Part shown: piece by piece, positions 4,044-46,318 of the stretch | Position numbering within the stretch: position 1 is the stretch's first letter | Layout: each line of letters opens with the position of its first letter | Source of the DNA: Escherichia coli | GTDB taxonomy: Bacteria; Pseudomonadota; Gammaproteobacteria; Enterobacterales; Enterobacteriaceae | Length of the DNA stretch: 64,000 nt | Assembly (NCBI RefSeq): GCF_003790525.1 | Contig: NZ_CP033636.1 | Direction: 5' to 3' (one strand) | Made by a program: the position numbers and the translations under genes | The notes under the pieces: generated by a model | Databases searched by the model: none | What the model saw: the letters and a program-made list of their open reading frames with translations, nothing else | What the model was told of the DNA's origin: nothing

Positions 4044-4061
4044 TTACACTACCTCATGACT

Positions 4062-4106: not shown

Positions 4107-4109
4107 AGA

Positions 4110-5030: not shown

Positions 5031-5098
5031 TTCAATACCCTCTTAATAGAGGGATTTCTCCCATAGGGAGAAATCCCTATGGGAGAAAATAATTTTAA

Positions 5099-6049
5099 TT
5101 AATAATTATAGCGAAGCGCATGTTCTTTTTCACTAAGATGGTTTTCATATTCCGACTTACCAGAACTTAAACACTCTTTGAAAAAGACCTTTGAAAAATT
5201 CTTCAAGTCACTTCGGTTATTAATTTCTTTGTCAGACATCAACTTAGCTGAGTGTGAGGTATCAACAGGCCCCAACCACCATTCATATTTAATATAAACA
5301 CAATTGGTTTGTGTATGTCCATTTAGAAATCGTTTTGCATTTCTAAGTATTTTTCTACAACCGTTAAGGTCTGAAAGTAAGATATCTGGAGCAATGAGCT
5401 CTTCCAGAATATGACCAGGTAAGCCTTTCCTAAAAAGCTCAACATCGTAACTACAATACCAGTCACGATAATTAAAAGCTTTAATAAGTCTTTCAGGTGT
5501 ATCCAAAGATATCTTATTCAGGATTTTTAATGCAAAGCATACAGCATCTTTTAACAACTCGTGCACCTCAACATTGATAAATGAGAAAAACGAGCTTAAT
5601 TCTTTCTCTAAGGAATTATACAACTTACCGTAAATATCCTGAGAAAAAAGATACTGCAATCTTTCTTTATTATAAGTGCAATTCGAAATTGAATAGACTT
5701 CTCCTCTTTCGATTTTGCACCCTTCCCTTAAAACTATAGGAAACCTCAAATGGTTAACAAAGAAAGAATGATTCTTTCTTTGCTTCAAAGCATCTAATTG
5801 AAATTTCGTAATTTCCTCCAGATTTGCATCTTCAAAACCTGGAAAGGGAATATCACAGAAACAAGAACTATATGCTTTTGCTGATTCATACATAAACTCC
5901 AGTGAAACATCAGCATCAAAAGACATACCAGAGAACATGCCCTGCCCATTGTCTAAAAATGTAATGTTTTTAACCTGTATTTTTTTATGTTGAACAACCA
6001 AAAAGGCATTAATGATTTTTTCGATAATTTTCATGTGATCCTCTCTCAA
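5099..6049 (-). CDS. hypothetical protein (~300-aa family, divergent member)
   Basis: ORF track 316 aa; N-terminal KIIEKIINAFLV motif; true start may be the internal Met at residue 6. Confidence 0.55.
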   Translation of the reverse strand: MREDHMKIIEKIINAFLVVQHKKIQVKNITFLDNGQGMFSGMSFDADVSLEFMYESAKAYSSCFCDIPFPGFEDANLEEITKFQLDALKQRKNHSFFVNHLRFPIVLREGCKIERGEVYSISNCTYNKERLQYLFSQDIYGKLYNSLEKELSSFFSFINVEVHELLKDAVCFALKILNKISLDTPERLIKAFNYRDWYCSYDVELFRKGLPGHILEELIAPDILLSDLNGCRKILRNAKRFLNGHTQTNCVYIKYEWWLGPVDTSHSAKLMSDKEINNRSDLKNFSKVFFKECLSSGKSEYENHLSEKEHALRYNY

Positions 6050-6050
6050 T

Positions 6051-6094
6051 AAAAAAAGGGATCACTCCCATATGGGGTGTGATCCCCACATGGG
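6051..6094 (-). terminator. intergenic compound GC hairpin (putative terminator/attenuator)
   Basis: GGGATCAC...GTGATCCC and CCCATATGGGG inverted repeats preceded by A7 on plus strand (U7 after hairpin on minus transcript). Confidence 0.4.
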
Positions 6095-6104
6095 TATAAT
6101 TTAA

Positions 6105-6983
6105 TTAAAAATCTGTAAGACCTAAATCTTTATTTCTACCACAAACTGTAGAAGATATAAGACGTTTTACTCGCTTTCGAGCACTTCGGCCTGACGTATC
6201 TTTCAAGTACATCGGTAATGACAATGATGAAATTTGATTACTTCGCTTATGATGGCAGACTATATAGCCCTGCCTCCACCCCGAACGCACAAACTCACGG
6301 ATGCGGTTAATATATGCCGAAGCTTGAGATTTTGTACTTATCGATTCAGAACACTTTAAGTTCTGTTCGATAGAGTAAAGCTCAGCCGCCATGAATTTCA
6401 CCTCATACAGCTCATCGCCATAACTTATAGTTTTCAACAGCTCTTCCTTTTCCCGAATGAAAAATACTTGCTGCATTCCAAGGATCAGGTCATAGGCCTC
6501 TCGAAAGAGGTCGATAAGCTTATTACGAACATAAATCATAAACTCCTCAAAGTGCTGAAGCCAGAAATAAGCCGCATTACTTATTTGTGAATTGTGAGAA
6601 CAAACAAGCCCTTTAGCAAGCTCGACCTCTTCCTCCCGAAAAGTAAAGTTACTTTTCTTAAACCGACTTTGTTCAAAAATGCTTTGATGCATTTCTATCC
6701 ATACAGAAACAAAACCGAGGGATTCAAATTCTTCGTTTAACAAATGTAAACTTTCGAAGATTTTCTGAATTTCGATCCCGATGTCATATGACAGTGGACA
6801 TTCTTTTATAGAATAAACATAACCGGGTAGGAAGTGAGATAAATGCTCAGTTCGCAAATATAAACTGAATTTAAGTTCTGTCAGTGGTTGTTTCAAAGAT
6901 AACTTAGATGATTCGCTTATATTTACTGGTTCAACGCCATTTCTAATCAAAATAGCTTTTACCAGGTCCGTAGCTAACTTCAT
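6105..6983 (-). CDS. hypothetical protein (~300-aa family, divergent member)
   Basis: ORF track 292 aa; N-terminal DLVKAILIRNGV motif shared with neighbours. Confidence 0.55.
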   Translation of the reverse strand: MKLATDLVKAILIRNGVEPVNISESSKLSLKQPLTELKFSLYLRTEHLSHFLPGYVYSIKECPLSYDIGIEIQKIFESLHLLNEEFESLGFVSVWIEMHQSIFEQSRFKKSNFTFREEEVELAKGLVCSHNSQISNAAYFWLQHFEEFMIYVRNKLIDLFREAYDLILGMQQVFFIREKEELLKTISYGDELYEVKFMAAELYSIEQNLKCSESISTKSQASAYINRIREFVRSGWRQGYIVCHHKRSNQISSLSLPMYLKDTSGRSARKRVKRLISSTVCGRNKDLGLTDF

Positions 6984-7061
6984 ACAGCCTCCATTCGTTA
7001 TTGAGGCCTCCCTGATGCAGGTTGGCCATCAGGGAAAATATGTAAATCAATTAGCAATCAA

Positions 7062-7583
7062 TCAGACCGTTGCCATGACATTGTCAATGTATCTGACAAG
7101 GGATGGGCGGTCGTCCTGTAAGGCAAAACGGCGAAGGTCATCAAGATTATACGCAGGAAGATAATCAGCGTAACCTCGAATACGAAGGTCCTCAACCACA
7201 ACTTTTATATACTCAAATCGTCCAAGATTCCCTTTTAATGGGGGTTTTCCTGGACTAGACAGCATATCGTCTGCTTGCTCCCATGTGATTTCTTTAGCTT
7301 CACCACTATGTAGATCAAGATGGACATATATGAATGACTTATAATCTCCACGGCAACGAAGATAATATTTCGGATAGAAATATTTGTCACAACGCAACAA
7401 ACACGTTCCTGAAGGACGAACTACGTACAACAGGTTTCTGTCATTTTCTAATATGCTATGTTTCAAAATCGTTATATCTATCTCATTATCATGCAGCAAA
7501 TAGCATGACGATGGTTCATTGACGATGCGCGATTTTATAACAGCAGCAAATTTATTAAAAACTTCGTTAATTTGAAAATTCAT
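7062..7583 (-). CDS. hypothetical protein (173 aa)
   Basis: ORF track; within the co-directional gene string; no motif recognised. Confidence 0.5.
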   Translation of the reverse strand: MNFQINEVFNKFAAVIKSRIVNEPSSCYLLHDNEIDITILKHSILENDRNLLYVVRPSGTCLLRCDKYFYPKYYLRCRGDYKSFIYVHLDLHSGEAKEITWEQADDMLSSPGKPPLKGNLGRFEYIKVVVEDLRIRGYADYLPAYNLDDLRRFALQDDRPSLVRYIDNVMATV

Positions 7584-7774
7584 TAAAATGCTCTCCGATG
7601 TAAAACGACGAGCATCACCATAACGGTAATACTCCCGTTATGGGTTTTAATAGTTTATGGAATAACCATGTCATACAACCGACCATAGCCAGTAGTACCG
7701 CACATTTATTTAACTGAGCAAGCATCTCAGCCGTGAAAAGACCTTAAAGGCAGGTAATTATCACGAAGGAAAGC

Positions 7775-7822
7775 GGTTATCTTATCAATACAATTTTAAA
7801 ATATAATATTGATAAGATAACC
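7775..7822. promoter_or_regulatory. perfect 16-bp inverted repeat (GGTTATCTTATCAATA / TATTGATAAGATAACC) with 16-nt AT-rich spacer; candidate operator or structured site
   Basis: Read directly from sequence at 7775-7790 and 7807-7822; sits between primase stop (7854) and the next gene start (7583). Confidence 0.35.
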
Positions 7823-7841
7823 CCCCCCGCAAAAAGCGGGG
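7823..7841 (-). terminator. putative intrinsic terminator after primase gene
   Basis: CCCCCGC-AAAAA-GCGGGGG hairpin directly downstream of the 7854-9158 stop codon on the minus strand. Confidence 0.45.
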
Positions 7842-7853
7842 GAGTTATCGTTG

Positions 7854-9158
7854 TTACAGCTGATTAAGACATTCAGGAGCCCAGTGAATCGGGAATCCAT
7901 CCTGCCCTGTTAACTGGAGAACATCGTTCCAGTCGATACCCTTTTTCCCATCAGGAATATCTTGTGCTGGTTCGAAGACTTCAATTGTCAGCTTTGATGC
8001 GGGATATCGTTTAGCCAAAAACTCAACCATGCGGCTTTGAAGTCGCTGAGCAGCTTCAATACCGGCACGAGTGCCTTGTGAGTTAGCAATATCCTTATCC
8101 GCCCAGATATAAAAGTTTATAGATTTTACATCCGGCGGAGGCAGTAAAAAATCAGGAACAGTAACGTTTTCAAGGCACCATGCGGAGCTGGCTGCCCAGC
8201 ATGGTGTTGAAGTCGCTTCTACAACAGAAAGCGCGTTCTCGATCCCTTCAGCCACTCCCAGTGTCCAGGTCGAACTACCTGAATCATAGTGAGGGTCAAA
8301 CAACTGAATTGAGCCACCTGTCATATCGGCAGGAGGCTTCATCATCAGCTTTGGATTTTCTACAGGTGCCTTATCACCATTTTTGTCTACGTATGTTCTA
8401 TGAATAGTCAGAGGCCGACCTCGGGTGTCACGATAGATCGCAATCATTCCCGGATAGATAATCGATTTCTGCTTATCTTTATCCCAATAGTAGATCCGGT
8501 TATTAAAGCCTAAATCCTTTGGTAAGTGACTCAGTAAGCGGGAGATCCCACGATTACGGAGGTACAAAGCAACAGGAGTATTAGGCTTGATTTCACCGGT
8601 ATAGTGATACATCACATCAAGTTTTCGCATTCGCTTTGCCACTTCCTCTCGGTCAAGAGTTTCTGTGGCACGAACTGCTGATTTATAGCGTCGTTCATTT
8701 TCAATGTCGGCGTCAGTTAACGGAGCATGCAGATCCATCCCGAAAAAATCTGAGAGAATCTTTTTGCAAGTCTGCGTTTTACTTAATTCATAATATTTCG
8801 CCAGAACATCAATTCCGTCGCAAAACTCATTTACCGGAAAGTCATTATGGATCGCACATCCGGTATAAAGGTCTTTTTGTCGGAAACGAAACTTCGATTT
8901 CCCTGCGCCAGTAAACGGGCAAGGAACCTGGCTCGGGGCTTTTGCACAAGCGTCTTTGAAAGCAGGTATTCTTTCGAATATATACTTCCAGCCAGACACT
9001 TCAGCAATTCGAGCATGAACGAGTTTAATAAAGTGTTCAGATACTTCCTGTGGATTACGACGAAGAGCCGGGGATGCATAAGTCATGATGATCTCTCTTA
9101 TCTGGCATTGTGAGTTTCTCAATGCCTTCTGCGGTGCAGAAGACAGGGAGAAACCCAC
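7854..9158 (-). CDS. DNA primase (zinc-ribbon CHC2-like motif plus Toprim domain)
   Basis: ORF track 434 aa; CPFTGAGKSKFRF...C...H motif typical of primase zinc-binding domains (P4 alpha / plasmid primase type) and Toprim-like GVAEGIENALSV...DKD segment. Confidence 0.65.
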   Translation of the reverse strand: MGFSLSSAPQKALRNSQCQIREIIMTYASPALRRNPQEVSEHFIKLVHARIAEVSGWKYIFERIPAFKDACAKAPSQVPCPFTGAGKSKFRFRQKDLYTGCAIHNDFPVNEFCDGIDVLAKYYELSKTQTCKKILSDFFGMDLHAPLTDADIENERRYKSAVRATETLDREEVAKRMRKLDVMYHYTGEIKPNTPVALYLRNRGISRLLSHLPKDLGFNNRIYYWDKDKQKSIIYPGMIAIYRDTRGRPLTIHRTYVDKNGDKAPVENPKLMMKPPADMTGGSIQLFDPHYDSGSSTWTLGVAEGIENALSVVEATSTPCWAASSAWCLENVTVPDFLLPPPDVKSINFYIWADKDIANSQGTRAGIEAAQRLQSRMVEFLAKRYPASKLTIEVFEPAQDIPDGKKGIDWNDVLQLTGQDGFPIHWAPECLNQL

Positions 9159-9199
9159 AACGCAGAATTTAAGAAAGAGGGCCCGGGGGCCCTCAACAT

Positions 9200-9421
9200 T
9201 TATGCTTCAGTCGTGAAGCCATTATTCTCAAGACACTGTATGTAGTTATCTACAAGTAACGCAGCCTGCTGGCTATTACCCTCCGCTATAGTGACTTCGC
9301 GGAAGATTCTTTCCTGAGGGCTATCATTGCTTATAACTTCACCAACACGTCCGAAAATACGGACTTTATGCATCGCACCGACTTTTTCATGTTCTACACG
9401 GTAAGTTTTTATCTGAGTCAT
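9200..9421 (-). CDS. hypothetical protein (73 aa)
   Basis: ORF track; flanked by intergenic hairpins in the operon; no motif. Confidence 0.4.
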   Translation of the reverse strand: MTQIKTYRVEHEKVGAMHKVRIFGRVGEVISNDSPQERIFREVTIAEGNSQQAALLVDNYIQCLENNGFTTEA

Positions 9422-9448
9422 ATTTTGCTCCTTATTCCTTCATGGAGC

Positions 9449-9485
9449 AAAAAGACCCACCGGGGCCTTTTGCCCCGATTGGGTA
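9449..9485 (-). terminator. intergenic GC hairpin (putative terminator/attenuator)
   Basis: CCCACCGGGGC...GCCCCGATTGGG imperfect inverted repeat with A5 on plus strand side. Confidence 0.35.
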
Positions 9486-9492
9486 GAGTTTA

Positions 9493-11505
9493 TTAAGAAA
9501 GTATTTGATGAACTAGCTTACTGACTTCAATAGACAATAAAGAAGTATCATCAACTGTTACGAAAGTGTCCGTTTCAAAACCAATTATTTCATCAGTCTT
9601 AATACCAACACCAACGATTTCTATTCCATTACATTTAGCCTTTTCCATAACTTCGCCGATAGTAAATTCCGATTTATTCGGATAACCATCAGTTATAAGA
9701 AAAATTATTTTCCTATCGAATTGGCTGTCAAGTAACAGATCAACAGCTGCCATTAAAGCCGATCCCGTAGGGGTATAATAACCCTTACATCCAAGAGTGA
9801 ATTTCGATAGAGATTCCTCAACGCTTTGATCAAACGTTTTGATAATCTCAAATTCACTTTCCTTGAAGGGAAAGACTATATTGGAGACATGCATTTTTGA
9901 CAAACTTTCAGCGGCCATCGATAAAGCAAGATCTGACTTAATGGCATGAATATATCTTTCATCATTAGCCATTGACGCTGAAATATCACGAACTAATACG
10001 AGGCCAACATGCCCTCTATTTTTAGATTCGCTTTGAGCTCTGAAGACATCACGAACTCCCATTGGTGACAGAATTAATCGATTTCCATCGAAGGTAATTC
10101 CACGCTCATGAGTTTTGTTTCGGCCACGCATTTTAACCTGCTGTAAAACAGACAAGTCGCTACCGATTGAATGACTCAGAGACAAAGCCTCATTGTAAAC
10201 ATTCAAATCGATAAGGAGATCAGGGATATCCCATTCAGAAGCACCGAATTCGGCTTTCACGTCATCGGATACTTTTGATGCAATACCTTCAATCTCTTCA
10301 GCCAAAGCATCGTGATAATCTTCGCTATCCTCATCACTGCCAAGAAAGGCATCCAACAAATCTGCCAGTATCTCCCATTGAGCCGATGAAAAGTTACTTT
10401 CATCTTCAACGTTAGTCGAACTGGCTTCATCTGATTCACTCTCGGAAGGGTTAATCGCATCAGTATCGTCTTCAATAATGTTATCACCTGTGGGATTGCC
10501 ACCGGTGGGTTCATTATTTCCCTCGTTATCTTCAGCAAGTTCTGAAGGCTCAGAACATCCCTCTTGAGCAAGATCAGAGTTATCGGAAGTATCTGCCTGA
10601 CCTTCACTATCGTCCTCAGAATCATCCTCACGACTATCAGTCGACTCAAGCGATTTATCTTCTGATTCGGTATCGGTATCGGTATCGGTCTCGGATTCAT
10701 CATATGCCTCCTGCTCCTCCTGCTCTGTCTGCTGCTGTTGTTCCCTTGCCTCATCCCGCAGTCTCTCTAAAAGAGCCAGGGTCTTACGAGCAAGGGATTC
10801 ACAGCCCTGAGTATTTTCACAACCAAGAGCATCATGAAAAATTTCCTCAACATCAGAAATTACTGGAGAAAGTATCTTTTGGGCATAGTCAAAAAACGGA
10901 TCGAGTGTTTCTTTGTGACCTGCCTGCTGAAGGACTTTTACTCGCAATGAGTTAAGCAGATACCACTCAATAAATAGGACAGGATTTTCCGGACGAGAAG
11001 ATATATCAGGAGTCATCCTTCCGGCTTTAACCATCAGTGCGTAAGTGGCTGCAAGCCGCCGCTTTGCATCCGGATAATCGTTACCAACCTTCTCTTCCAT
11101 CTGTACATCATCGAACAGATTTATAAGCCCGGTAAGACGTTTTGCCCTGCTATAAGCTTTACGTTTCTCAGCGAGGCTCTCAAACTCTGCATTCATTCCG
11201 TCATCGAAGCGTGTAAACCCTTCAGATGACTTGAGAACACTATTAAAGGCGTCACTGTAAACCTCGCTGTCGGTATAGCGACCATGACCAGCTTCATGAC
11301 AGGTAAAACCTTCAATCAGACTGACAAAGTCATCATCGCTATAATCGCCGTTTGGTAAAACACAAACTTTATTTACAGGATCAAAATACGGTCCTTTGGT
11401 ATTGTCGTCTATTACAACTCTTACATCGCCTAAGCCGCTAATGACTTTTGCTATATTCTGTAAACGCTTAATATGGCGCGGTGATGATTTAAGATCTAAT
11501 TTCAT
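9493..11505 (-). CDS. CobT-like protein: N-terminal domain, long acidic low-complexity linker, C-terminal von Willebrand factor A (VWA) domain
   Basis: ORF track 670 aa; C-terminal VGLVLVRDISASM (DxSxS MIDAS motif) followed by VWA-like pattern; central ~120 aa stretch extremely rich in D/E/S/T (ESETDTDTDTESEDKSLESTDSREDDSEDDSEG...), as in aerobic cobaltochelatase CobT-type proteins. Confidence 0.65.
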   Translation of the reverse strand: MKLDLKSSPRHIKRLQNIAKVISGLGDVRVVIDDNTKGPYFDPVNKVCVLPNGDYSDDDFVSLIEGFTCHEAGHGRYTDSEVYSDAFNSVLKSSEGFTRFDDGMNAEFESLAEKRKAYSRAKRLTGLINLFDDVQMEEKVGNDYPDAKRRLAATYALMVKAGRMTPDISSRPENPVLFIEWYLLNSLRVKVLQQAGHKETLDPFFDYAQKILSPVISDVEEIFHDALGCENTQGCESLARKTLALLERLRDEAREQQQQTEQEEQEAYDESETDTDTDTESEDKSLESTDSREDDSEDDSEGQADTSDNSDLAQEGCSEPSELAEDNEGNNEPTGGNPTGDNIIEDDTDAINPSESESDEASSTNVEDESNFSSAQWEILADLLDAFLGSDEDSEDYHDALAEEIEGIASKVSDDVKAEFGASEWDIPDLLIDLNVYNEALSLSHSIGSDLSVLQQVKMRGRNKTHERGITFDGNRLILSPMGVRDVFRAQSESKNRGHVGLVLVRDISASMANDERYIHAIKSDLALSMAAESLSKMHVSNIVFPFKESEFEIIKTFDQSVEESLSKFTLGCKGYYTPTGSALMAAVDLLLDSQFDRKIIFLITDGYPNKSEFTIGEVMEKAKCNGIEIVGVGIKTDEIIGFETDTFVTVDDTSLLSIEVSKLVHQILS

Positions 11506-11520
11506 AGAATACCTCTTTAT

Positions 11521-11567
11521 AAAAAAGGGGTACTCACCCAGATGGTGAAGTACCCATCTGGGGTTTT
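11521..11567 (-). terminator. intergenic compound GC hairpin (putative terminator/attenuator)
   Basis: GGGTACTCACC / GGTGAAGTACCC and CCCAGATGG / CCATCTGGG inverted repeats; A6 on plus strand = U6 after hairpin on minus transcript, just upstream of next RBS. Confidence 0.4.
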
Positions 11568-11582
11568 TAATAAAGCAAACAG

Positions 11583-12710
11583 TTACCAGCCTTTGAGCTC
11601 GATATCAAAACCATTTTCAACATTGTCTTCCTGTTGCGAAACTGATTTCTCAGGTTCAGCTACAGGATCAGTGTTTGAAAACGTGCTGTTATTTATATCG
11701 TTCTCTACGACAGGTTCAACCTGGAACACATTTGTTGAATCTAAAATAGCTTCAATACCTGTGTTCTGTAGCGCGTTCGGTTCTGTTTGTGAGCTTTGAT
11801 TAAATGATCTGGTAATAGATTCCAACCAGTCAGTAACCTTTTGCTCTCCTGAAATAATACGCTTTAACATTGAAGCATCACTCATGAAATAAAACCACTG
11901 CTGTAACACCGCAACGTCGCGAGGTTCAGAAATGGCACCTTTAGGTAAATTATTCATTATGTGTTTTATAGCTTCTGCAAGTACTGCCGCCTCTTTATGT
12001 ATAAACATGAAGCTAATGATCTTATTTTGCATTTGCTTCAGTCGGTCAATAGTACTTGAGCGCAAATTGTTATTTTTGCTAATTTTTTCATAAACCTTCA
12101 TTGCTTCTTCTGCCAGATCTGTTATCAATTGTTCCTGATAGTAGTCCTGGGTTTCATCACCTTCAACGCTAATAGGCGTAAAAGGAATAAAGTGAGCAAT
12201 ATTAAATCTAAAGGATTTTATGAAATCATCTTTAGTTAATTTCAACTGATCAATCAAAGAAGACATTCTTGGGCTTCTATTTTTTTCAGCCTCAATATGC
12301 ATCTCATAATTGTCTACAACGTTTTGAATACCTGCCTGAAACTCTCGTTCAATCTCTTGGGCCCCTTCCAGAAACTCTTCCATACTGGATACTGGTAAAA
12401 TCCACATATTGCTATAGCGGATGCACAAGCGTGAGCAAAGAGTTGATATTCTGCTGGTAATCGTACTTTTGAAGCTAAGGGCTTTTATGTCAATCCAGCG
12501 TACTTCGCTTTTAGATACGCTTTTTTGATCCGTAATATCATCTCCATCATAAGACAAATCGATTTTATCGGTTCGACGCGATCCTTGACAGCCACTTATT
12601 TCAATTTTTGTTATAACTGCACCTTCCAGTAAATCTGGATATGATTTTGCAAAATTCTCAGAGATTTGTTTTGCAGATACTTTGTTAAGCATTGAAGTAT
12701 TTAAAGTCAT
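11583..12710 (-). CDS. hypothetical protein (~375 aa)
   Basis: ORF track gives 11583-12722, but the codon at 12722-12720 is TTG; the ATG at 12710-12708 with GGAG 7 nt upstream is a more plausible start. No motif recognised. Confidence 0.5.
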   Translation of the reverse strand: MTLNTSMLNKVSAKQISENFAKSYPDLLEGAVITKIEISGCQGSRRTDKIDLSYDGDDITDQKSVSKSEVRWIDIKALSFKSTITSRISTLCSRLCIRYSNMWILPVSSMEEFLEGAQEIEREFQAGIQNVVDNYEMHIEAEKNRSPRMSSLIDQLKLTKDDFIKSFRFNIAHFIPFTPISVEGDETQDYYQEQLITDLAEEAMKVYEKISKNNNLRSSTIDRLKQMQNKIISFMFIHKEAAVLAEAIKHIMNNLPKGAISEPRDVAVLQQWFYFMSDASMLKRIISGEQKVTDWLESITRSFNQSSQTEPNALQNTGIEAILDSTNVFQVEPVVENDINNSTFSNTDPVAEPEKSVSQQEDNVENGFDIELKGW

Positions 12711-12720
12711 GGGTTTCTCC

Positions 12721-12770
12721 AAAAAAAAGGGGAAACCCTCCCCAACGGGAAAGATTTCCCGATAGGGTTG
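12721..12770 (-). terminator. intergenic compound GC hairpin (putative intrinsic terminator)
   Basis: GGGGAAACCCTCCCC and CGGGAAAGATTTCCCG hairpins; A8 on plus strand = U8 following hairpin on minus transcript. Confidence 0.45.
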
Positions 12771-13078
12771 ATATTAAAGCTTCTCTGGTGAAATTAAAAG
12801 AATACCGGGAAACTCAGCAACAACATCATCATTGCCCATTGCTCCCTGATACATATAACCTTTTAATTCCATTTGTTTAATCAGACCTTCCATATTTATT
12901 TTACCATCATGATAAAACAATAAAGAATAGTCGTTATTCAGTTGCATAAGTCCAGTAAAATTAGTTCCGTTTTTTGCTATAGCAATGGTAGCAGCACCAT
13001 CCGTACTTAAAAACGCACTAAATTCAAGATGGGATAACTCTGAGATACAAATATCAGAGGTTTCATAACAAATCCCAT

Positions 13079-14137
13079 CTAACTCGACTTTTTTGCTGTG
13101 AAATACTCCAGCGATTTATCCTTGTCTTCGCCAAGAGAAAGATCTATAGCTTGAAGAACAAGATCGACCACATGTAAAGGTAAAGCAGAAGCAAAAGCTA
13201 TTTTGAAAGTGTCAAGAAGACTAAAGGTTTTTAACGTCATCGACGTGCCAACCCAAGCTACTAATTGACGAATATCCATCACACTGTCTTCTGTACCAGA
13301 GTCATTTACTGCAATCGCTACTCTTACGAACTTCTCAATGACCTGAAAAGGCAAAGAGCTATATCGTTTAGTAAGCACATTGGTTAAAGCAACTTTGTCG
13401 GGCTTCTCCATTTCAACTATCAAGAACCGCTTTATAAAAGCTGCATCTTGACGTTGAGAAGAAACGAACCGGCGAGCGCCTCCACTCATGTTTGTGTTTG
13501 CAGTACCAATAAATCGCGTGTAGCCATTAGCAGTTATAACCTCACCACCATTAGCACTGAGTGACCAGGGCTTACGTTCAATGGGCATGTGAAGTTTTGC
13601 TGCCGTATCAGGATCGATTTTGTCCACTTCATCCAGAAGAATGAGGTGACCATTACGAAATCCCGTTACCAAATCGCTGTGTACAAAACCTGTATTACCA
13701 CCATTAAGACTGCGCTCACCTTCAAGCTCATCAACTCGAATATTGCTGTTGATCTGCTTAATTGTCAGCGGCCAATTCATCATGTGGCTAATGTACATTA
13801 CCATTTCAGTCTTGCCAGAACCGGACTCACCTTTAAGACACACACTTAAATCTATATCCGGACTGATAAGCAGTTTAACCACTTGTTCAAGTATTCGGGG
13901 ATTTGGTATGTAGTCTTTGTTCAGCGGAGCTCGATACGAGGTTTTAGTTTTGAAAACAGGCACAGCCATCTTTGGATCCATTTCTGGAATACCAAAAAGG
14001 TCCTTTGCTAGAACTAAAAGATACTCACCTTTATCCACATAATGTTTTAACTTTATAACATCCGGGGAAAGAAGAGCTTCTAATTTTTCATAAGCATCAG
14101 AAGATGTTTCATTTAACTTCATAGCGGCATTAGACAT
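13079..14137 (-). CDS. AAA+ ATPase, MoxR/CobS-like
   Basis: ORF track 352 aa; Walker A GESGSGKTE, Walker B hhhhDE (LILLDEVDK), size and motif spacing as in CobS/MoxR-class ATPases; encoded in the same operon as the CobT-like VWA protein. Confidence 0.7.
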   Translation of the reverse strand: MSNAAMKLNETSSDAYEKLEALLSPDVIKLKHYVDKGEYLLVLAKDLFGIPEMDPKMAVPVFKTKTSYRAPLNKDYIPNPRILEQVVKLLISPDIDLSVCLKGESGSGKTEMVMYISHMMNWPLTIKQINSNIRVDELEGERSLNGGNTGFVHSDLVTGFRNGHLILLDEVDKIDPDTAAKLHMPIERKPWSLSANGGEVITANGYTRFIGTANTNMSGGARRFVSSQRQDAAFIKRFLIVEMEKPDKVALTNVLTKRYSSLPFQVIEKFVRVAIAVNDSGTEDSVMDIRQLVAWVGTSMTLKTFSLLDTFKIAFASALPLHVVDLVLQAIDLSLGEDKDKSLEYFTAKKSS

Positions 14138-14194
14138 TTTTAACTCCGGTAAAATGCAAACACCGCCCTCTGGCAGATGTTTGCCAGTGGCATT

Positions 14195-15172
14195 TTATTT
14201 GAGATTCATTTGGCAAATAGTTGCCATCAGTTTCCTGATTTGAGGCACATTATAACCAAGATGATTTCCCACTATTTCAAAAGCTTCAGACATGATCCAT
14301 TCAAAATGATTTTCGAATATTGGATTGATTTCTAACTTGCCAAAAGCGTTTCGTTTAGTTAACAGATCACATGAAACAAGCTCGTCAAACAACTCTAATG
14401 TGGATTTAAAAGCTTTTATGTAAACATCCATAATTTCCCTGTCAGTCCATTTAACAGCCAGTTTTTTTTCTGACATTAAATAATCCTGATCAAAGAAGAT
14501 GTCCCAGCCCATATCGTCATTGCAATCATGCAAAATGATTTCATCATCATTCCTGCATTCAGCTAATTTCGTGTTTTCACTAATCGAACGATGCGAATGA
14601 TAATAGAGCCATGATTTTAATTCCGCTCTAAATTCACATGCATCAAGTCCATGACATAAACAAGTGTATTCAAATGATTTTGACATATACCACCGTGTTT
14701 CAGCTTCTAAAAGTGGATTCACTGTGATATTACCATTGTCATCTTTGAAGAATAACTTTCTCCTCAACACTAGTTCTTTAATGATTTCCAAAGACTCTTC
14801 CATAGCGGATAGAAAAACAACATACACATCCTCAGGGGTCCATTCTATTACCAGACCACCCAAATCTGGGTTATATTCTTCAACCGTATATAGATAATCT
14901 GTTTCTGCTGCAAAATTAATTGTATGCAAAATCTGATTTTTAAGTAATTTGGATTTTTCATAAAGGTGATTTTCACGCCTTTCAGAATCATAATTTATCT
15001 CAGAAATGTTACTTTCTTCTGATTTAAAGTTTAATCCGGACGTGTAAGCATCATTTAAATGCTCTTTGGGTGAATCAACTATTTGCGTTATTTCATCTTC
15101 ATCTATATCGAGTATAGAAAAAAAACTAAGTTGATTACTACTTATTGCAGTAGCCCTAAATTTTTGTTTCAT
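14195..15172 (-). CDS. hypothetical protein (325 aa)
   Basis: ORF track; no motif recognised. Confidence 0.5.
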   Translation of the reverse strand: MKQKFRATAISSNQLSFFSILDIDEDEITQIVDSPKEHLNDAYTSGLNFKSEESNISEINYDSERRENHLYEKSKLLKNQILHTINFAAETDYLYTVEEYNPDLGGLVIEWTPEDVYVVFLSAMEESLEIIKELVLRRKLFFKDDNGNITVNPLLEAETRWYMSKSFEYTCLCHGLDACEFRAELKSWLYYHSHRSISENTKLAECRNDDEIILHDCNDDMGWDIFFDQDYLMSEKKLAVKWTDREIMDVYIKAFKSTLELFDELVSCDLLTKRNAFGKLEINPIFENHFEWIMSEAFEIVGNHLGYNVPQIRKLMATICQMNLK

Positions 15173-15180
15173 GGGGACTC

Positions 15181-15225
15181 CAAAAGGAGAAATCCCATGA
15201 AGGGATTTCTCCCCTTTAGGGTGGG
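15181..15225 (-). terminator. intergenic compound GC hairpin (putative terminator/attenuator)
   Basis: GGAGAAATCCC-ATGAA-GGGATTTCTCC perfect inverted repeat between 14195-15172 and 15233-15610. Confidence 0.4.
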
Positions 15226-15232
15226 TTTAATG

Positions 15233-15610
15233 TCAGATCTGATTAAAGCTACTTTGTCCAAAACCTTTTAGAGGTTTAGGTATGTGAGCCAACTTACTTG
15301 TTGCTACCACTCTCATGTAGTCAAGAGGATGTTCTCTCCCTTCAATCATAATAGTATCGACAACAATATAACCGGAGACCATCAACTCATCACCCTGATT
15401 TATACCAGTGAAACAGGTTGAATACATTTCAGGCGACACCTTGATTTGAACTGAAAATTCTCTCTCAGTGATTTCACCATCAACTTCTGTCTTCATCCTA
15501 TTTTTGAGCTTTATTAACAAACCTATACTCTGGTCAGTCATTTTTTTCTCCACAGCACTGATAACTATCCCGGACACTTTTACTTCATTGATATATTCAA
15601 GATATGACAT
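15233..15610 (-). CDS. hypothetical protein (125 aa)
   Basis: ORF track; beta-rich pattern loosely reminiscent of OB-fold proteins but not assignable. Confidence 0.45.
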   Translation of the reverse strand: MSYLEYINEVKVSGIVISAVEKKMTDQSIGLLIKLKNRMKTEVDGEITEREFSVQIKVSPEMYSTCFTGINQGDELMVSGYIVVDTIMIEGREHPLDYMRVVATSKLAHIPKPLKGFGQSSFNQI

Positions 15611-15667
15611 TTTCCGCTCCTCGATTTGTTCAAAGAGAAGCCCCGTTAGGGTTCCCCCTTAACAGGA

Positions 15668-16540: not shown

Positions 16541-16934
16541 TTGGGGTCACCTATATATAGTAAGAAGGAAGAAACAATTTTTTGTTTCAACACGAAGGCA
16601 AAGCCTGTCATTCATCTCCCGTAAGCTATGAACCGCCTGATTTATACTATCTGGCATTAGAAGTACGCAACAAAAATAGCTCCAGGAGGAGCTAAATTAG
16701 TTACGGTTTGGTAAATTCAGATTGCCTTTTTCAGGCATGGGAAGTGCACCAGCGACAAAGGTGACATTTTGCCGGTGGTGTCTTACAGCTTGTTTAAGCT
16801 GGCCGCTTTTCACGGCTAAATCAACGCTTAACGCGAAAGTAACTTTAAGCAAAGTTACTCAAATTTGGGAGCTGATATTTAAGCTCATTGTTTTTATACT
16901 ATAGCTTTAAGCATAAGTAAATGCCCATATCGAA

Positions 16935-38550: not shown

Positions 38551-39800
38551 GCGTTAACTCCTTGCTTAGCTGAAAAACTTTTTATTTCATTTATAAATTG
38601 TTGATATACCTGTAATACAGATTCTTCTGCGACATCAAGTTGCTTTGCGGAACAAAGTTCCTCTGATTTTTTGATATCAAGCACTGTACGCCCTTTGGAA
38701 GCAGCTGCCTTAAATGCTTCAGAATTTTTTATGTTAGCGGACATCAAAAGGTCCTGAACAGTTCTGATTAATTTATCCAAAACTATTCTTTCATATGGAC
38801 TTTTGTCATCAACATTGACAGCAAGAACTTTGAACCATTTTAAATTATCGCCCTTACTTGGTGATTGTTTAAACCTTTCACTTATTGTAAGCATGAAGTC
38901 TGTAGTAGAGGCGTAATCATATTCACGTGGTGACACTGCGACAAGAATCCCATCGGCCGCTTCGTCAGCAGCCCAGATCAAAGGTGAATCTTCAGGTGGA
39001 GTGTCTATAATAATCAAATCATAGTTCTGCTTCAGTACCGGTAAGATAACTTCCTTGAAACGTAGTAACAAAGACGTTCGTTCTTCTCTAGAACATTGCC
39101 AGTATTTATCTTTAAAACGAGCATCTGTCGGAAATGCCGTTATCACGTCCAAGTTTGGCAGATGCGTTGAAAAAGGCATATTAGTGATGATTTCTTCTTC
39201 AGAGAATCCTGAATCTAAATATTTTTTATACTCAGAATTTTCTTCATAAATTCCAAGGATTGCATCAATTGCTGTAAGGAAGACATCATCTTCTGAGACA
39301 CTTTGAATCATGCTGCTTCCAATCGAACCTTGTGGGTCCCATTCGATCATTAATACACGTGCATTCAGTTGTAGATCTAAAGCAGCTGCTACTGCTAAAG
39401 CTACAGATGTAGTGCTTTTCCCTGTACCGCCTTTATGATTCTGAGTAACAATAGCTCTGCTAAAGTAATGATCGCGGTACTTGGGATAACCCAGGGCATC
39501 CATTATTTTTTGAACATCCCAGCGGGTGTAAAGATGATTTTTGTTTTGATAAATAGGTGCACCAACAACTTCTTTTTCTTCTAAGTCCGAAAGTATTTTA
39601 TTGAACGTTACTCGTGACTTCCCAAAAAAATCAGAGAGATTTTTTTTATTTAAACAGTGGTTGTAGATCAGTCTATCAACACCATCAACACTATCATCAG
39701 AAACAGATACTCTTGATGAAGCCATCAGAGATTCCTTAAGAGAAATCTGCTCGCTTTTCATGCGCTGACCAACGAGGGCGATCTTTTCAAGTAAATTCAT
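38547..39800 (-). CDS. parA: ParA/SopA-family partition ATPase (type Ia, long N-terminal extension)
   Basis: ORF track 417 aa; deviant Walker A KGGTGKSTT, ~110-aa N-terminal extension typical of SopA/P1 ParA-type proteins. Confidence 0.85.
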   Translation of the reverse strand: MNLLEKIALVGQRMKSEQISLKESLMASSRVSVSDDSVDGVDRLIYNHCLNKKNLSDFFGKSRVTFNKILSDLEEKEVVGAPIYQNKNHLYTRWDVQKIMDALGYPKYRDHYFSRAIVTQNHKGGTGKSTTSVALAVAAALDLQLNARVLMIEWDPQGSIGSSMIQSVSEDDVFLTAIDAILGIYEENSEYKKYLDSGFSEEEIITNMPFSTHLPNLDVITAFPTDARFKDKYWQCSREERTSLLLRFKEVILPVLKQNYDLIIIDTPPEDSPLIWAADEAADGILVAVSPREYDYASTTDFMLTISERFKQSPSKGDNLKWFKVLAVNVDDKSPYERIVLDKLIRTVQDLLMSANIKNSEAFKAAASKGRTVLDIKKSEELCSAKQLDVAEESVLQVYQQFINEIKSFSAKQGVNA

Positions 39801-43636: not shown

Positions 43637-46318
43637 CTACGCGGCCAAACCCGCTGCTACTTCTTGAGCATAGAGAATTTCTATTGCCTCGCCATAGCTA
43701 CAATTCTCGCGGCTTTGAATTTCCCATAATTTACTCCTGTCAGCACTATCCGTAGTAAAACAAAGCTCCATTTTCCGGTCTACGTATAACCGACAGATCT
43801 CTTGGAAGTTTTCGAACCTGACTAACATCTCTGAAAACACCTTTTTGACTGTACGAATATTTTTCATTCGTTCATATTCTGCATCTGAAGTAGAAAAATA
43901 TTTATTAGCCTTCATTGCTTCAATGCTTTCTTTTTCTTGTTTCATGATTATCTTCCAAGGCGAGTTAGCAGTCAGGGCCCGGCCAACAGAAGAAGTAAAA
44001 TAATCTTCAAACGACTGTGTGATACAGATGCCAGCGCAGTTTGTTTTCCTGAACCTACGCCATGCCGCTTCGAGGAAGGAAGAGAAGAATTGGTTTGATT
44101 GATTTCCGGCACCTGATGAATTATCAGGACGAATGTACTCCCAAGCTTCATCTAGGATGAACAAGCGACGACGCCCATCTTTTTTGATGAACATTGCATG
44201 CTGAGCAGCCTGAATGATAGACATTAAAACAACTGTCTGAAGGTGGGGGGTGCCTTTTAGCTCCTCCAGTTCCAAAACAATAAATCTGCTGTCGAAGTTG
44301 ATTGGAGGCAACGTATCGGTAAACCGGTGCCCATAAATTCCACCTTCGCACCATGCTCCGAGTTGCTCCCCAATATCCTTTATACGTTTGTCTTCATGCT
44401 TCTTGCAACGCAGAGCAAAGCCGGTTATTGAACCGGTCCGACCTGATTTTCTGGATTCCTGGTACTCTTCTGCAATAAGCTGAAGCATCACTGATTGTTG
44501 ATAATCATCGATAAGGCCTTTCTCTGAAGCCATAATTTTTAGCTGATTCAGAACCATTATGGTCTGAGCAACTTTGTCTTTTTCTGCATCGTTTGAAGTT
44601 GATTCACCGGTAAATTCAGGTGCTTCGTTAAATACATCGTCGTTAACAGTGATGTCAGTTAGGAAGGCAAAGGGATTTAGGGTGAAGTCAGGGGTTTTAC
44701 CGAAATCAATAAATTGACTGTTTGTATATTGTTCCGCAATCCCCTGGTAAGAACGCCCCACGTCCACTACAAAAACTTGAGCACCATCAGGATCATCATC
44801 TGGGTATTCGTTTTCTAAAAAATGCTTAAATGTTGAGCGATAATGAACGAGGTTATTAGATCGCGGTCCAGCTCCAAGATAGTTATTGATTAGATATGCT
44901 GTCCAGAATGACTTGCCTGCACCTGACGTTGCACCAATAACCATGTTATAGCTTGCAGAAGTCTTGAAAATATCAAGTCCCATGAGTTGACCTTCACGAG
45001 AAACTAAACTCAGTACTGGTCTATCTGTATTACCTTTCCAGGGCCCAAAGATCGGCGTCATATGAGCCGCTCCGGTGTTGCTCACTACTTCGGATCGGTC
45101 AAGGTCGAAAATTGTCTTTGGGTCATTGCACATTGGCAGACATGACATAAATGACGGGAAAACGATAAAGGAATCATCTGCTACTTTGACCCGGCTTTCG
45201 AGGTAAAAGGATTTGAGATCGTTAGCTGCTGTCTGCACAGAATTGGCATTACTACCCATAACAGTGAAAGTAAGATACCCTCTTAAAAGCTTTGCGCCAT
45301 CCTCAAGCTCGCGAGTTACGGCCATGTAGTCATTATCCATATCCCGCAGGCGAGGGCAGAATGTGACAACTGAAGGTATACTTGCCTGTTTATTAGTGAT
45401 TGCTTTGTAGCGGACGTTTTCTTTTGACAACTTGAGCGGATCGGCAAACTGAACAGTCTGAGTGATCATAAATGGGCTGAAAATTGTCTTACGTCCATGC
45501 ATCCAGTTAACTACTAACTCATACATACAACCGAAATTGACGTATTCAGGAAACTTTACAACGGAAAGTTGTTTGAAGTAACGATGCTCAGATTCGTCGT
45601 CACTTTGTGTGACTGATGAGAAATGATTTTCTGTGACTGTATACTTACGGCCGGGAACGTTAACTTGTTCATTAAGCCTTTTCATAGTGTTAACGTCTAT
45701 AAAACCTTCAGCCCACCGAGAGTTCTTTCCGGGGTTTACGACCTTATCTATACAATAGAGCCAGTTTTCTGCATCGACCTTAAACGGATGCAGTCCAATC
45801 GTAATTAACTTACTTACAAGTTCAGAGTAAAGTGAATCGATACGCGAATGTTCCAGCTCGGTAGGAAGGGCAGACTGTAAAGGAATCGATAGCGAGATCC
45901 ATACCTGAAAATCCCTCAACATAAGGTTATCATGATCAGGTTTTAAAGGCTTATGCATACTTCTGTCGTAGTAGTCCAACTGATAACCATTAAGCAGATC
46001 TGCTTTAAGCTTATCGTTCCCAGTCATACGCCCACCTCGCACAGCTGACCAAGCACTAAGCTGTAAAGTCAAGTCTGGCAATGCAGTCAGAGATATTTGA
46101 CAGACAGTATCTGTAGGAAAATCCATTTTGAACATTTCAGCAAGAACATCTTGCTGATTATCAAAAACTCCAGGTGATGGATTACAGATAAACATAAACC
46201 CTAATCTGTTGCCATCAATCAAAAAATAGTGAGTCCCTGCTAATTGATCGTAAACAGGGATAAACCCACCTAATTGATGGCGATTTAAACCGCTATTGTA
46301 ATTATTGATAGCTTCCAT
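43637..46318 (-). CDS. traC: TraC (VirB4-like) conjugative transfer ATPase
   Basis: ORF track 893 aa; Walker A GATSGAGKS, Walker B-like FILDEAW; size and position after traV typical of F-type TraC. Confidence 0.8.
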   Translation of the reverse strand: MEAINNYNSGLNRHQLGGFIPVYDQLAGTHYFLIDGNRLGFMFICNPSPGVFDNQQDVLAEMFKMDFPTDTVCQISLTALPDLTLQLSAWSAVRGGRMTGNDKLKADLLNGYQLDYYDRSMHKPLKPDHDNLMLRDFQVWISLSIPLQSALPTELEHSRIDSLYSELVSKLITIGLHPFKVDAENWLYCIDKVVNPGKNSRWAEGFIDVNTMKRLNEQVNVPGRKYTVTENHFSSVTQSDDESEHRYFKQLSVVKFPEYVNFGCMYELVVNWMHGRKTIFSPFMITQTVQFADPLKLSKENVRYKAITNKQASIPSVVTFCPRLRDMDNDYMAVTRELEDGAKLLRGYLTFTVMGSNANSVQTAANDLKSFYLESRVKVADDSFIVFPSFMSCLPMCNDPKTIFDLDRSEVVSNTGAAHMTPIFGPWKGNTDRPVLSLVSREGQLMGLDIFKTSASYNMVIGATSGAGKSFWTAYLINNYLGAGPRSNNLVHYRSTFKHFLENEYPDDDPDGAQVFVVDVGRSYQGIAEQYTNSQFIDFGKTPDFTLNPFAFLTDITVNDDVFNEAPEFTGESTSNDAEKDKVAQTIMVLNQLKIMASEKGLIDDYQQSVMLQLIAEEYQESRKSGRTGSITGFALRCKKHEDKRIKDIGEQLGAWCEGGIYGHRFTDTLPPINFDSRFIVLELEELKGTPHLQTVVLMSIIQAAQHAMFIKKDGRRRLFILDEAWEYIRPDNSSGAGNQSNQFFSSFLEAAWRRFRKTNCAGICITQSFEDYFTSSVGRALTANSPWKIIMKQEKESIEAMKANKYFSTSDAEYERMKNIRTVKKVFSEMLVRFENFQEICRLYVDRKMELCFTTDSADRSKLWEIQSRENCSYGEAIEILYAQEVAAGLAA

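What the first reader, a model, noticed from the sequence alone, without database searches (positions are those of the whole stretch)
10440..10760. Hyper-acidic linker with a hexanucleotide microsatellite inside the CobT-like gene
The D/E/S/T-rich linker is partly encoded by a (GGTATC)n tract at about 10667-10693, giving TDTDTDTE. In-frame slippage could vary linker length between variants.
Basis: seen in the sequence. Interest (0 to 1): 0.3.

Follow-up and report, generated by a model that had tools for sequence, protein, structure and literature searches.

The report
Variable six-base repeat in plasmid gene
A short six-base repeat inside the floppy, acid-rich middle of an IncHI2 resistance-plasmid backbone protein really does gain and lose copies between closely related plasmids, but the change is small, keeps the reading frame and looks like an ordinary, probably harmless length polymorphism that could serve as a lineage marker.

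Summary
The window is IncHI2 plasmid backbone. The gene at 9493..11505 (-) encodes a 670-aa protein with three parts: a zincin-like N-domain, a disordered acidic linker and a VWA/MIDAS domain. It lies in a module with a CobS-like AAA_5 ATPase, a DUF3150 protein and a Toprim primase-like gene.

The tract at 10669-10692 reads GAGACC(GATACC)3 on the coding strand, giving ETDTDTDT. It sits where a long helix ends and the disordered linker begins.

Among about 1115 PLSDB IncHI2 plasmids I found eight in-frame alleles with 2 to 6 units:
- EDDD, about 474 records.
- EDD, about 440 records, including R478.
- EEED, about 112 records.
- EEDDD, about 70 records.
- Rare EEDD, ED, EEEED and EEEDDD.

In 12 gene copies every indel falls inside the tract. 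Four different alleles sit on genes that are otherwise identical at every base. The tract is therefore a true slippage hot spot, roughly 100 times the backbone per-base change rate, yet each allele is stable within a lineage.

Distant homologues, including solved CobT, keep an acidic linker at the same position, with very variable length and often their own tandem repeats. Length change is therefore tolerated. It is an ordinary coding VNTR, not a phase-variation switch.

The parts
9493..11505 (-). Gene for the 670-aa VWA-domain protein (RefSeq WP_072692376.1, CobT superfamily) of the IncHI2 backbone
   Evidence: ORF list. 100% identical to annotated CDS on many IncHI2A/MOBH/MPF_F plasmids. Pfam VWA E=2e-7. 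Homologue profile matches solved CobT 9uka_G at E=6.6e-39.
10696..11505 (-). N-terminal domain (aa 1-270), zincin-like fold, ending in a long helix (aa 232-270) whose last turns are E/Q-rich
11284..11298 (-). HEAGH (aa 70-74), an HExxH motif
   Evidence: H70, E71 and H74 are invariant in 73 of 73 aligned homologues, with D133 also invariant; E137 is nearly invariant there and invariant in the 30-sequence N-domain alignment. Coordinates checked by translation. Absent at the aligned site of solved CobT.
10390..10695 (-). Disordered hyper-acidic linker (aa 271-372): D+E 38 of 102, S+T 27, K+R 2
   Evidence: AF2 pLDDT 41-58 with no secondary structure. Composition. Not alignable among homologues, yet an acidic segment is present at the same place in most of them.
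10669..10692 (-). Hexanucleotide VNTR: coding strand GAGACC x1 + GATACC x3 = ETDTDTDT (TRF call: 10667-10694)
   Evidence: Polymorphic, with 2-6 units in 8 alleles. Census.
9496..10389 (-). Helical middle region plus C-terminal VWA/MIDAS domain (aa 373-670)
   Evidence: Pfam VWA. Foldseek best hits are the NorD VWA and the Rea1/MDN1 MIDAS domains.
9973..9987 (-). MIDAS motif DISAS (DxSxS, aa 507-511)
   Evidence: D507, S509 and S511 are invariant. A DxSxS motif is present in 131 of 131 family representatives. Translation check.
13079..14137 (-). Partner AAA+ ATPase (AAA_5, CobS/MoxR-like), 352 aa
   Evidence: Pfam AAA_5 E=5e-28. TIGR01650 CobS 1.3e-8, far below its cut-off. PHROG 249. Synteny is conserved in relatives L009 and L010.
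11583..12722 (-). DUF3150 protein between the ATPase and the VWA gene
   Evidence: Pfam DUF3150 E=2e-23. Conserved synteny.
7854..9158 (-). Toprim_3/DUF7146 primase-like gene downstream
   Evidence: Pfam. PHROG 510, DNA primase. Conserved synteny.

Best explanation
The tract is a genuine in-frame coding microsatellite (VNTR). It consists of two adjacent sub-arrays, GAGACC (Glu-Thr) and GATACC (Asp-Thr). It lies at the N-terminal edge of an intrinsically disordered acidic linker in a CobT-superfamily VWA protein of the IncHI2 plasmid backbone.

Shown:
- The copy number of each sub-array changes between otherwise identical genes.
- The changes are always whole 6-base units.
- The tract is the only site of length change in the gene and the only multi-base indel site in 17 kb of surrounding backbone.

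Inferred:
- The mechanism is slipped-strand mispairing during replication.
- The changes add or remove 2-8 residues, one acidic charge per unit, in a roughly 100-residue flexible tether. This tether joins the N-domain to the MIDAS domain of an adaptor that works with the neighbouring CobS-like AAA+ ATPase.
- Such changes are tolerated, effectively neutral, because the linker needs acidic, disordered character rather than a fixed length or sequence.

The alleles change slowly enough to mark plasmid lineages. This is not a phase-variation switch.
For: Eight alleles were read from DNA:
- ED (L004, L009)
- EDD (L003, and R478 through its identical protein WP_000762700.1)
- EDDD (window, L005)
- EEDD (L013)
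- EEED (L011, L012)
- EEDDD (L002, L006)
- EEEED (L007, L008)
- EEEDDD (L015)
Sources.

In the 12-gene alignment all 24 gap columns are columns 811-839, the tract. L002, L011, L012, L013 and L015 have 0 SNPs among them but carry four alleles. L003 and L005 have 0 SNPs but carry EDD and EDDD.

Over 17,141 aligned backbone bases, five plasmids differing by only 6-16 SNPs carry five different alleles. L020 and L021 differ by 4 SNPs and one unit. The other indels are single bases.

Census: EDDD at most 474, EDD at most 440, EEED at most 112 and EEDDD at most 70 of 1115 records. The cross-checks between queries agree.

All alleles keep the order E...E D...D, as expected for slippage within two homogeneous sub-arrays.

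Linker tolerance:
- In 131 family representatives the acidic segment ranges from 3 to 177 aa, median 60, with D+E about 0.41.
- Of these, 14 carry strong tandem peptide repeats, all in the linker, against 0 in shuffled controls.
- The Yersinia relative has a 15-nt x 10.5 array at the same place.
- Solved CobT has an acidic stretch at the aligned position, residues 219-295.
- AF2 predicts disorder for aa 271-372.

ChlD is described as having an extended linker rich in acidic residues before its integrin I domain (PMC6604950).
Against: - No experiment or read-level data show slippage occurring.
- The equal-length alleles (EDDD, EEDD, EEED) could also arise by single T/G substitutions at the sub-array boundary, or by recombination between plasmids.
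- Neutrality is inferred, not measured.
- The common alleles segregate with lineages that have different host ranges (EDD in Enterobacter-rich records, EDDD in Escherichia and Salmonella). This is equally compatible with hitch-hiking or with selection.
- My sequenced examples were chosen by allele, so the rate ratio of about 100-fold is only rough.
Confidence: 0.85

Rival explanations
1. The tract is an adaptive tuning element. Unit number sets the tether length and charge at the hinge between the N-domain helix and the disordered linker. It thereby changes the activity of the AAA+/VWA machine, and different alleles are selected in different hosts.
For: The tract mutates far faster than the backbone. 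It sits exactly at the helix-to-disorder junction. The two main alleles have different host spectra. In ChlD and BchD the linker region has been reported to matter for activity (PMC6604950).
Against: The range is only 4-12 residues in a linker of about 100 residues. Homologues tolerate acidic linker segments of 3-177 aa with unrelated sequences. The 63%-identical relatives lack the repeat altogether. Alleles are fixed within lineages together with linked SNPs, as expected for hitch-hiking. There is no on/off capacity.
Confidence: 0.08
2. The differences arise mainly by point substitution (GAT to GAG and back) and by recombination between co-resident IncHI2 plasmids, not by slippage.
For: EDDD, EEDD and EEED have equal length and differ by one or two T/G changes. 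L005 carries the window's unit number on the R478-type SNP background, which could be a recombinant patch.
Against: Five alleles differ in length by exact multiples of 6 within the tract, with identical flanks. L020 and L021 differ by one unit and show no imported flanking SNPs within 17 kb. No interleaved pattern such as EDED was seen among the 8 alleles.
Confidence: 0.05
3. The length differences are sequencing or assembly artefacts.
For: One record (pFORC82_1, L014) has a substitution in the tract and a 1-base deletion nearby that splits the CDS. That looks like an assembly error.
Against: Each common allele recurs in 70-474 independent complete plasmids from many laboratories. The differences are whole 6-base units, not homopolymer errors. 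Alleles co-vary with lineage SNPs.
Confidence: 0.02

Closest known systems
Aerobic cobaltochelatase subunit CobT (solved as PDB 9uka chain G; Pfam PF06213 + PF11775)
   Same: Same three-part layout: a helical N-domain, an acidic low-complexity linker at the same aligned position (CobT residues about 219-295), and a C-terminal VWA/MIDAS domain. A profile of the window protein's homologues matches CobT at E=6.6e-39 in three stretches. It is encoded near a CobS-like AAA_5 ATPase. CobS and CobT are reported to form a two-tiered ring complex (PMC7689651).
   Different: The window protein itself does not reach the Pfam CobT or CobT_C models. It keeps an invariant HExxH that CobT lacks at the aligned site. 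There is no CobN or cobalamin pathway context. Instead it lies among IncHI transfer genes with DUF3150 and a Toprim primase-like gene. It is therefore almost certainly not a cobalt chelatase subunit.
Mg-chelatase ChlD/BchD acidic (polyproline) linker plus integrin I domain
   Same: An extended acidic linker precedes a MIDAS-containing integrin I/VWA domain in the adaptor subunit of an AAA+ motor (PMC6604950; PMC7689651).
   Different: ChlD has an AAA+-like N-domain and a proline-rich linker. Here the N-domain is zincin-like, the linker has only about 5 prolines, and the ATPase is a separate AAA_5 protein.
Midasin (Rea1/MDN1) D/E-rich region plus MIDAS domain, and NorD of the NorQ-NorD pair
   Same: The VWA domain's best structural matches are the NorD VWA (E=4e-9) and the Rea1/MDN1 MIDAS domains. 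Midasin matches the homologue profile from the acidic region through the MIDAS domain. In all of these a dynein-type or MoxR-type AAA ATPase works with a MIDAS domain.
   Different: Midasin is one giant eukaryotic polypeptide acting on pre-ribosomes. NorD activates nitric oxide reductase. No substrate is known for the plasmid protein.
In-frame coding microsatellites (VNTRs) in bacterial genes, as used in MLVA typing
   Same: Head-to-tail short units, copy-number polymorphism among near-identical genomes, changes in whole units that keep the frame, and location in a low-complexity region.
   Different: The array is very short (2-6 units), compound (two unit types), and on a plasmid backbone gene. 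It is much more stable than classical contingency loci. It does not switch expression.

Membership tests
CobT (aerobic cobaltochelatase subunit; Pfam PF06213 CobT, PF11775 CobT_C) | The protein itself matches the Pfam/NCBIfam CobT models at their curated thresholds | tested here: not met
   Only VWA-type models hit. The N-terminal 253 aa gives no Pfam hit even at E<=10. TIGR02442 scores 33.5 bits against a cut-off of 779. Distant relatives P0082, P0085 and P0088 do pass PF06213.
CobT (aerobic cobaltochelatase subunit; Pfam PF06213 CobT, PF11775 CobT_C) | Profile-level homology to an experimentally solved CobT over the N-domain, middle region and VWA domain | tested here: met
   The A2 profile (73 sequences) against 9uka_G gives E=6.6e-39, in three stretches covering chain residues 23-295, 347-461 and 521-616.
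CobT (aerobic cobaltochelatase subunit; Pfam PF06213 CobT, PF11775 CobT_C) | Works with CobN in a cobalamin-synthesis context | tested here: not met
   No CobN-like ORF in the window. The only ORF longer than 1100 aa, at 1434 aa, has only a weak Ig-like hit. The neighbours are trh transfer genes, DUF3150 and Toprim. Only the window and the annotated flanks were examined.
CobT (aerobic cobaltochelatase subunit; Pfam PF06213 CobT, PF11775 CobT_C) | Adjacent CobS-type AAA+ partner | tested here: inconclusive
   An AAA_5 ATPase lies two genes upstream (E=5e-28). Its match to the CobS equivalog TIGR01650 is 34 bits against a cut-off of 558. The type is right, but it is not an equivalog.
Coding microsatellite / VNTR | Head-to-tail copies of a short unit, beyond chance | tested here: met
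   TRF period 6, 4.7 copies, 95% matches. Exceeds all 200 window shuffles and all 5000 codon shuffles.
Coding microsatellite / VNTR | Copy number differs among otherwise near-identical sequences, and the indels are confined to the array | tested here: met
   Eight alleles of 2-6 units. All gap columns lie in the tract. Four alleles sit on genes with 0 other differences. Census.
Coding microsatellite / VNTR | Unit length is a multiple of three, so the frame is kept | tested here: met
   The unit is 6 nt. All eight alleles give full-length proteins of 666-674 aa.
Phase-variable contingency locus | Repeat change switches the gene on or off, by frameshift or promoter spacing | tested here: not met
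   The 6-nt unit lies inside the ORF and every allele is in frame. The one split CDS (L014) is caused by a 1-base deletion outside the unit pattern.
Phase-variable contingency locus | High-frequency heterogeneity within one culture | not testable with these tools
   No read-level data are available. Many records from single studies share one allele, which argues for stability.
Intrinsically disordered acidic linker (as in ChlD/BchD, CobT, midasin) | Predicted disorder and strongly acidic low-complexity composition between two folded domains | tested here: met
   pLDDT 41-58 with no secondary structure for aa 271-372, flanked by domains with pLDDT above 90. D+E 38 of 102 and K+R 2.
Intrinsically disordered acidic linker (as in ChlD/BchD, CobT, midasin) | Composition conserved while length and sequence are not | tested here: met
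   In 131 representatives the acidic segment is 3-177 aa, with median D+E 0.41. The region is unalignable. 14 of 131 have their own linker tandem repeats.
Zincin-like metallopeptidase (N-domain only) | HExxH motif conserved, plus a downstream acidic ligand | tested here: met
   H70, E71, H74 and D133 are invariant in 73 of 73. These plus E137 are invariant in the 30-sequence N-domain alignment.
Zincin-like metallopeptidase (N-domain only) | Zincin fold | tested here: inconclusive
   [not shown]
Zincin-like metallopeptidase (N-domain only) | Metal binding and proteolysis | not testable with these tools
   Needs biochemistry.

The most novel reading that the evidence does not exclude
The hexanucleotide array could be a selected tuning knob rather than neutral slippage noise. 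It sits at the hinge where the zincin-like, HExxH-bearing N-domain helix passes into the acidic tether. In this reading, unit number adjusts how a plasmid-borne CobS-like AAA+ / DUF3150 / VWA machine, which is not a cobalt chelatase, engages its unknown target. Different unit numbers would be favoured in different hosts: EDD in the Enterobacter-rich R478-type lineage, EDDD in Escherichia and Salmonella lineages.
Probability: 0.06. Interest if true: 0.45.

Novelty: new member of a known kind. Interest (0 to 1): 0.2.

Why it matters
**Practical use.** A 12-36-bp compound repeat in a core backbone gene separates the main IncHI2 sublineages. The allele frequencies are 42.5, 39.5, 10 and 6.3%. These closely parallel the published pMLST frequencies of ST3, ST1, ST2 and ST4, which are 217, 210, 59 and 33 plasmids (PMC11058233). 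R478 carries EDD. The tract could therefore be a cheap PCR-size or k-mer marker for these multidrug-resistance plasmids. The one-to-one allele-to-ST mapping is my inference and was not tested.

**Biological reading.**
- The acidic tether of this CobT-superfamily adaptor tolerates length change.
- Across the family the tether is repeatedly rebuilt by tandem duplication.
- This is a textbook behaviour of disordered linkers and does not open a new question.

**Side observation.** The plasmid and phage 'CobT-like' proteins keep an intact HExxH zincin motif that true CobT lacks. This is the more interesting lead for working out what this conserved, uncharacterised IncHI module does.

Tried and rejected
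- **Pfam at E<=10** on the N-domain and on the linker alone gave no hits.
- **PADLOC** gave nothing for the VWA or DUF3150 proteins and only marginal AAA hits, so there is no support for a known defence system.
- **PHROGs** gave only an unknown-function family and a weak CobT family.
- **Literature searches** found no study of this gene or tract:
  - 'DUF3150' returned one irrelevant preprint.
  - 'IncHI2' plus 'von Willebrand' returned only EFSA reports.
  - 'CobS/CobT/conjugative/plasmid' returned nothing relevant.
  - 'CobNST' and 'CobT acidic' returned no paper on the solved CobT structures.
- **Typing loci.** I considered whether the gene is one of the IncHI2 typing loci smr0018 or smr0199. 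I rejected this. The typing paper places smr0199 next to the traF-traJ and trhF-trhH genes, whereas this gene lies at about 44 kb in R478 beside trhI.
- **Contingency locus.** The phase-variation reading was rejected because the unit is 6 nt and every allele is in frame.
Full report
**What the window is**

The 2013-base gene at 9493..11505 (-) is 100% identical to a CDS annotated 'VWA domain-containing protein' on hundreds of large conjugative plasmids. These are typed IncHI2A / MOBH / MPF_F and come from Escherichia, Salmonella, Enterobacter and Klebsiella. 1120 PLSDB records match, as do 275 records in complete E. coli genomes, nearly all plasmids.

In pHNGD64-NDM the gene lies in a fixed backbone order: trhN, trhI, three hypothetical genes, an AAA ATPase, a small ORF, DUF3150, the VWA protein, a 73-aa ORF, a toprim protein, then a run of hypothetical genes. 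Two relatives keep the same order: one 91% identical and one from Yersinia that BLASTP aligns at 43% identity over only 39% of the query, outside the linker. Domain hits:
- VWA at the C-terminus of the target.
- AAA_5 for the ATPase at 13079..14137.
- DUF3150 for 11583..12722.
- Toprim_3/DUF7146 for 7854..9158.

**Check of the observation**

The + strand reads GATTC GGTATC GGTATC GGTATC GGTCTC GGATTC at 10664-10698. TRF reports period 6, 4.7 copies and 95% matches at 10667-10694. On the coding strand this is GAG ACC (GAT ACC)3, giving ETDTDTDT between ES and ES.

It is the longest period-6 run in the window. No Markov shuffle of the window (0 of 200, maximum 14 against 22) and no codon shuffle of the linker (0 of 5000, maximum 19) reaches it.

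An AlphaFold2 model built on 73 homologues is confident (pLDDT above 90) for aa 10-270 and about 373-670. For aa 271-372 it gives pLDDT 41-58 with no secondary structure. The disordered linker is therefore window 10390-10695. The repeat-encoded residues 272-279 lie exactly where the long helix 232-270 ends.

**Is the tract variable?**

A spread sample of the 1120 matching plasmids showed gene lengths of 2013, 2019, 2007 and 2001 bases. I fetched representatives and aligned them. Every indel in the gene lies in the tract. Further examples came from a protein-cluster look-up, from contig look-ups and from allele-specific searches.

With E = GAGACC and D = GATACC, in coding order, eight in-frame alleles exist:

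| Allele | Example(s) |
|---|---|
| ED | L004, and the 91%-identity relative L009 |
| EDD | L003; R478 carries the identical protein |
| EDDD | window, L005 |
| EEDD | L013 |
| EEED | L011, L012 |
| EEDDD | L002, L006 |
| EEEED | L007, L008 |
| EEEDDD | L015, Serratia pQC11_1 (2025-nt CDS, 674 aa) |

Searches with 19-base flanks around each common allele gave counts in the >=99% identity band:

| Allele | Records (of 1115) |
|---|---|
| EDDD | 474 |
| EDD | 440 |
| EEED | 112 |
| EEDDD | 70 |
| Rare alleles and damaged copies | about 19 |

These counts are upper bounds, but the other identity bands of each search agree with them. For example, the 506 records in the 90-95% band plus 4 in the 80-90% band sum to 510, which is close to 440 + 70.

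**Hot spot or old polymorphism?**

In a 12-gene alignment there are 27 SNP columns and 24 gap columns, and all the gaps fall in columns 811-839, the tract. L002, L011, L012, L013 and L015 are identical at every other position yet carry EEDDD, EEED, EEED, EEDD and EEEDDD. L003 and L005 are identical but carry EDD and EDDD.

Over 17,141 aligned backbone positions (window 2000-19150), five plasmids that differ pairwise by only 6-16 SNPs carry five different alleles. L020 and L021 differ by 4 SNPs and one unit. The only other indels in this stretch are single bases.

At least four unit changes in about 30 bases, against 24 SNP sites outside the tract (25 variable sites in all, one inside the tract at 10678) in 17 kb, gives a per-base rate roughly 100-fold higher. 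This estimate is rough because I chose the plasmids by allele.

Each common allele is nevertheless shared by 70-474 plasmids and is linked to lineage SNPs. The tract is therefore stable on epidemiological time scales. The allele frequencies (42.5, 39.5, 10 and 6.3%) parallel the published pMLST frequencies of ST3, ST1, ST2 and ST4, which are 217, 210, 59 and 33 plasmids (PMC11058233). A one-to-one mapping is my inference and was not tested.

**What the protein is**

The window protein hits only VWA-type Pfam models, and its N-terminal 253 residues hit nothing.

An exhaustive HMMER search found 1176 representatives at E<=1e-3. Among 131 full-length representatives:
- 128 have HExxH at about residue 60-80.
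- All 131 have a DxSxS motif.
- Most have an acidic segment at about residues 210-320.

Some distant members pass Pfam CobT, PF06213.

A 73-sequence profile matches solved CobT (9uka_G) at E=6.6e-39 over the N-domain, the middle region and the VWA domain. It also matches NorD (7e-18) and, from the D/E-rich region through the MIDAS domain, midasin. In that alignment CobT has no HExxH at the site where this family has invariant H70-E71-x-x-H74. CobT does have its own acidic stretch (residues 219-295) at the linker position.

- Then BlaR1, Ste24, Spartan, BepA and ArdC.

The label 'CobT-like' is therefore right at superfamily level. However, the protein is not a cobaltochelatase subunit: there is no CobN, the context is conjugative transfer genes, and an HExxH motif is retained. 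No PADLOC defence model matches it.

**How the linker and the tract most likely work**

*From established knowledge.* In chelatases the VWA/integrin I subunit links an AAA+ motor to its client, and ChlD carries an extended acidic linker before that domain (PMC6604950; PMC7689651).

*Inferred for this protein.* The acidic, disordered segment is a flexible tether between the N-domain and the MIDAS domain of an adaptor for the neighbouring AAA_5 ATPase.

*Shown here.* The family conserves the tether's acidic character but not its length (3-177 aa) or sequence. 14 of 131 representatives carry strong tandem peptide repeats of period 3-20 aa, all inside the linker, against 0 in shuffled controls. 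The Yersinia relative has a 15-nt x 10.5 array coding QQQD[GSD] at the same place. The 63%-identical relatives have no TD repeat at all.

*Conclusion (inference).* Adding or removing 2-8 residues in a linker of about 100 residues is very likely tolerated. The IncHI2 tract is then a small, young example of a general tendency, probably expanded from an ancestral ET-DT pair like the one still seen in the 91% relative.

The ordered E...E D...D pattern of all alleles, and the whole-unit changes with identical flanks, fit slipped-strand mispairing. Point substitution at the boundary could contribute to the equal-length alleles.

**Verdict**

It is an ordinary in-frame coding VNTR in a disordered linker, not a phase-variation device. 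Its value is mainly as a possible sublineage marker for IncHI2 resistance plasmids. I found no paper that describes it, so it is a new member of a known kind. Interest is low. The conserved HExxH motif in this uncharacterised plasmid module is the more promising side lead.

Noticed in passing
window 40180-42769: A 2.6-kb array of 10.6 tandem copies of a 249-bp unit (TRF score 2037, about 70% matches). No ORF of 150 aa or more crosses it. It lies between the TraC-family gene (43637..46318) and the ParA/ParB genes (38547..39800, 37546..38550). It is probably the centromere or incompatibility repeats of the IncHI partition module; that reading is from memory and was not tested.
   Followed up: partly
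[not shown]
   Followed up: partly
window 1977-6983 (-): Five consecutive ORFs of similar size (320, 312, 306, 316 and 292 aa). All are annotated hypothetical and none has a Pfam hit. They may be a tandem paralogous family; their mutual similarity was not tested.
   Followed up: no
window 7854-14137 (-); loci L009 and L010: The gene order AAA_5 ATPase, small ORF, DUF3150, VWA protein, 73-aa ORF, Toprim/DUF7146 primase-like gene is conserved directly downstream of trhI. It holds in a 91%-identity relative and in a more distant Yersinia relative, which suggests one functional module of unknown role in IncHI-type plasmids.
   Followed up: partly
L014 (NZ_CP026642.1, pFORC82_1), region matching window about 10660-10720: In this record the VWA gene is split into two short CDSs by a G-to-T change in the tract and a 1-base deletion nearby. 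This is probably an assembly error rather than a true pseudogene.
   Followed up: partly
window 26495-30799 (-): A 1434-aa ORF with only a weak bacterial Ig-like (Big_3_3) hit. It is possibly the large Ig-domain surface protein reported for IncHI plasmids; that is from memory and was not checked.
   Followed up: no
L010 gene positions 770-926; proteins P0057-P0063, P0044/P0045: Other lineages of the same protein have their own, much larger linker repeats. One is a 15-nt x 10.5 array coding QQQD[GSD], with relatives of 601-722 aa. Another is a 43-aa linker insertion that distinguishes P0045 from P0044.
   Followed up: partly
window 10707-10738: Two further short repeats (CCTCCTGCT x2.1 and CTGCTGCTGT x2) encode the E/Q-rich end of the helix just upstream of the tract. 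No length variation was seen there in the 12 aligned genes.
   Followed up: yes
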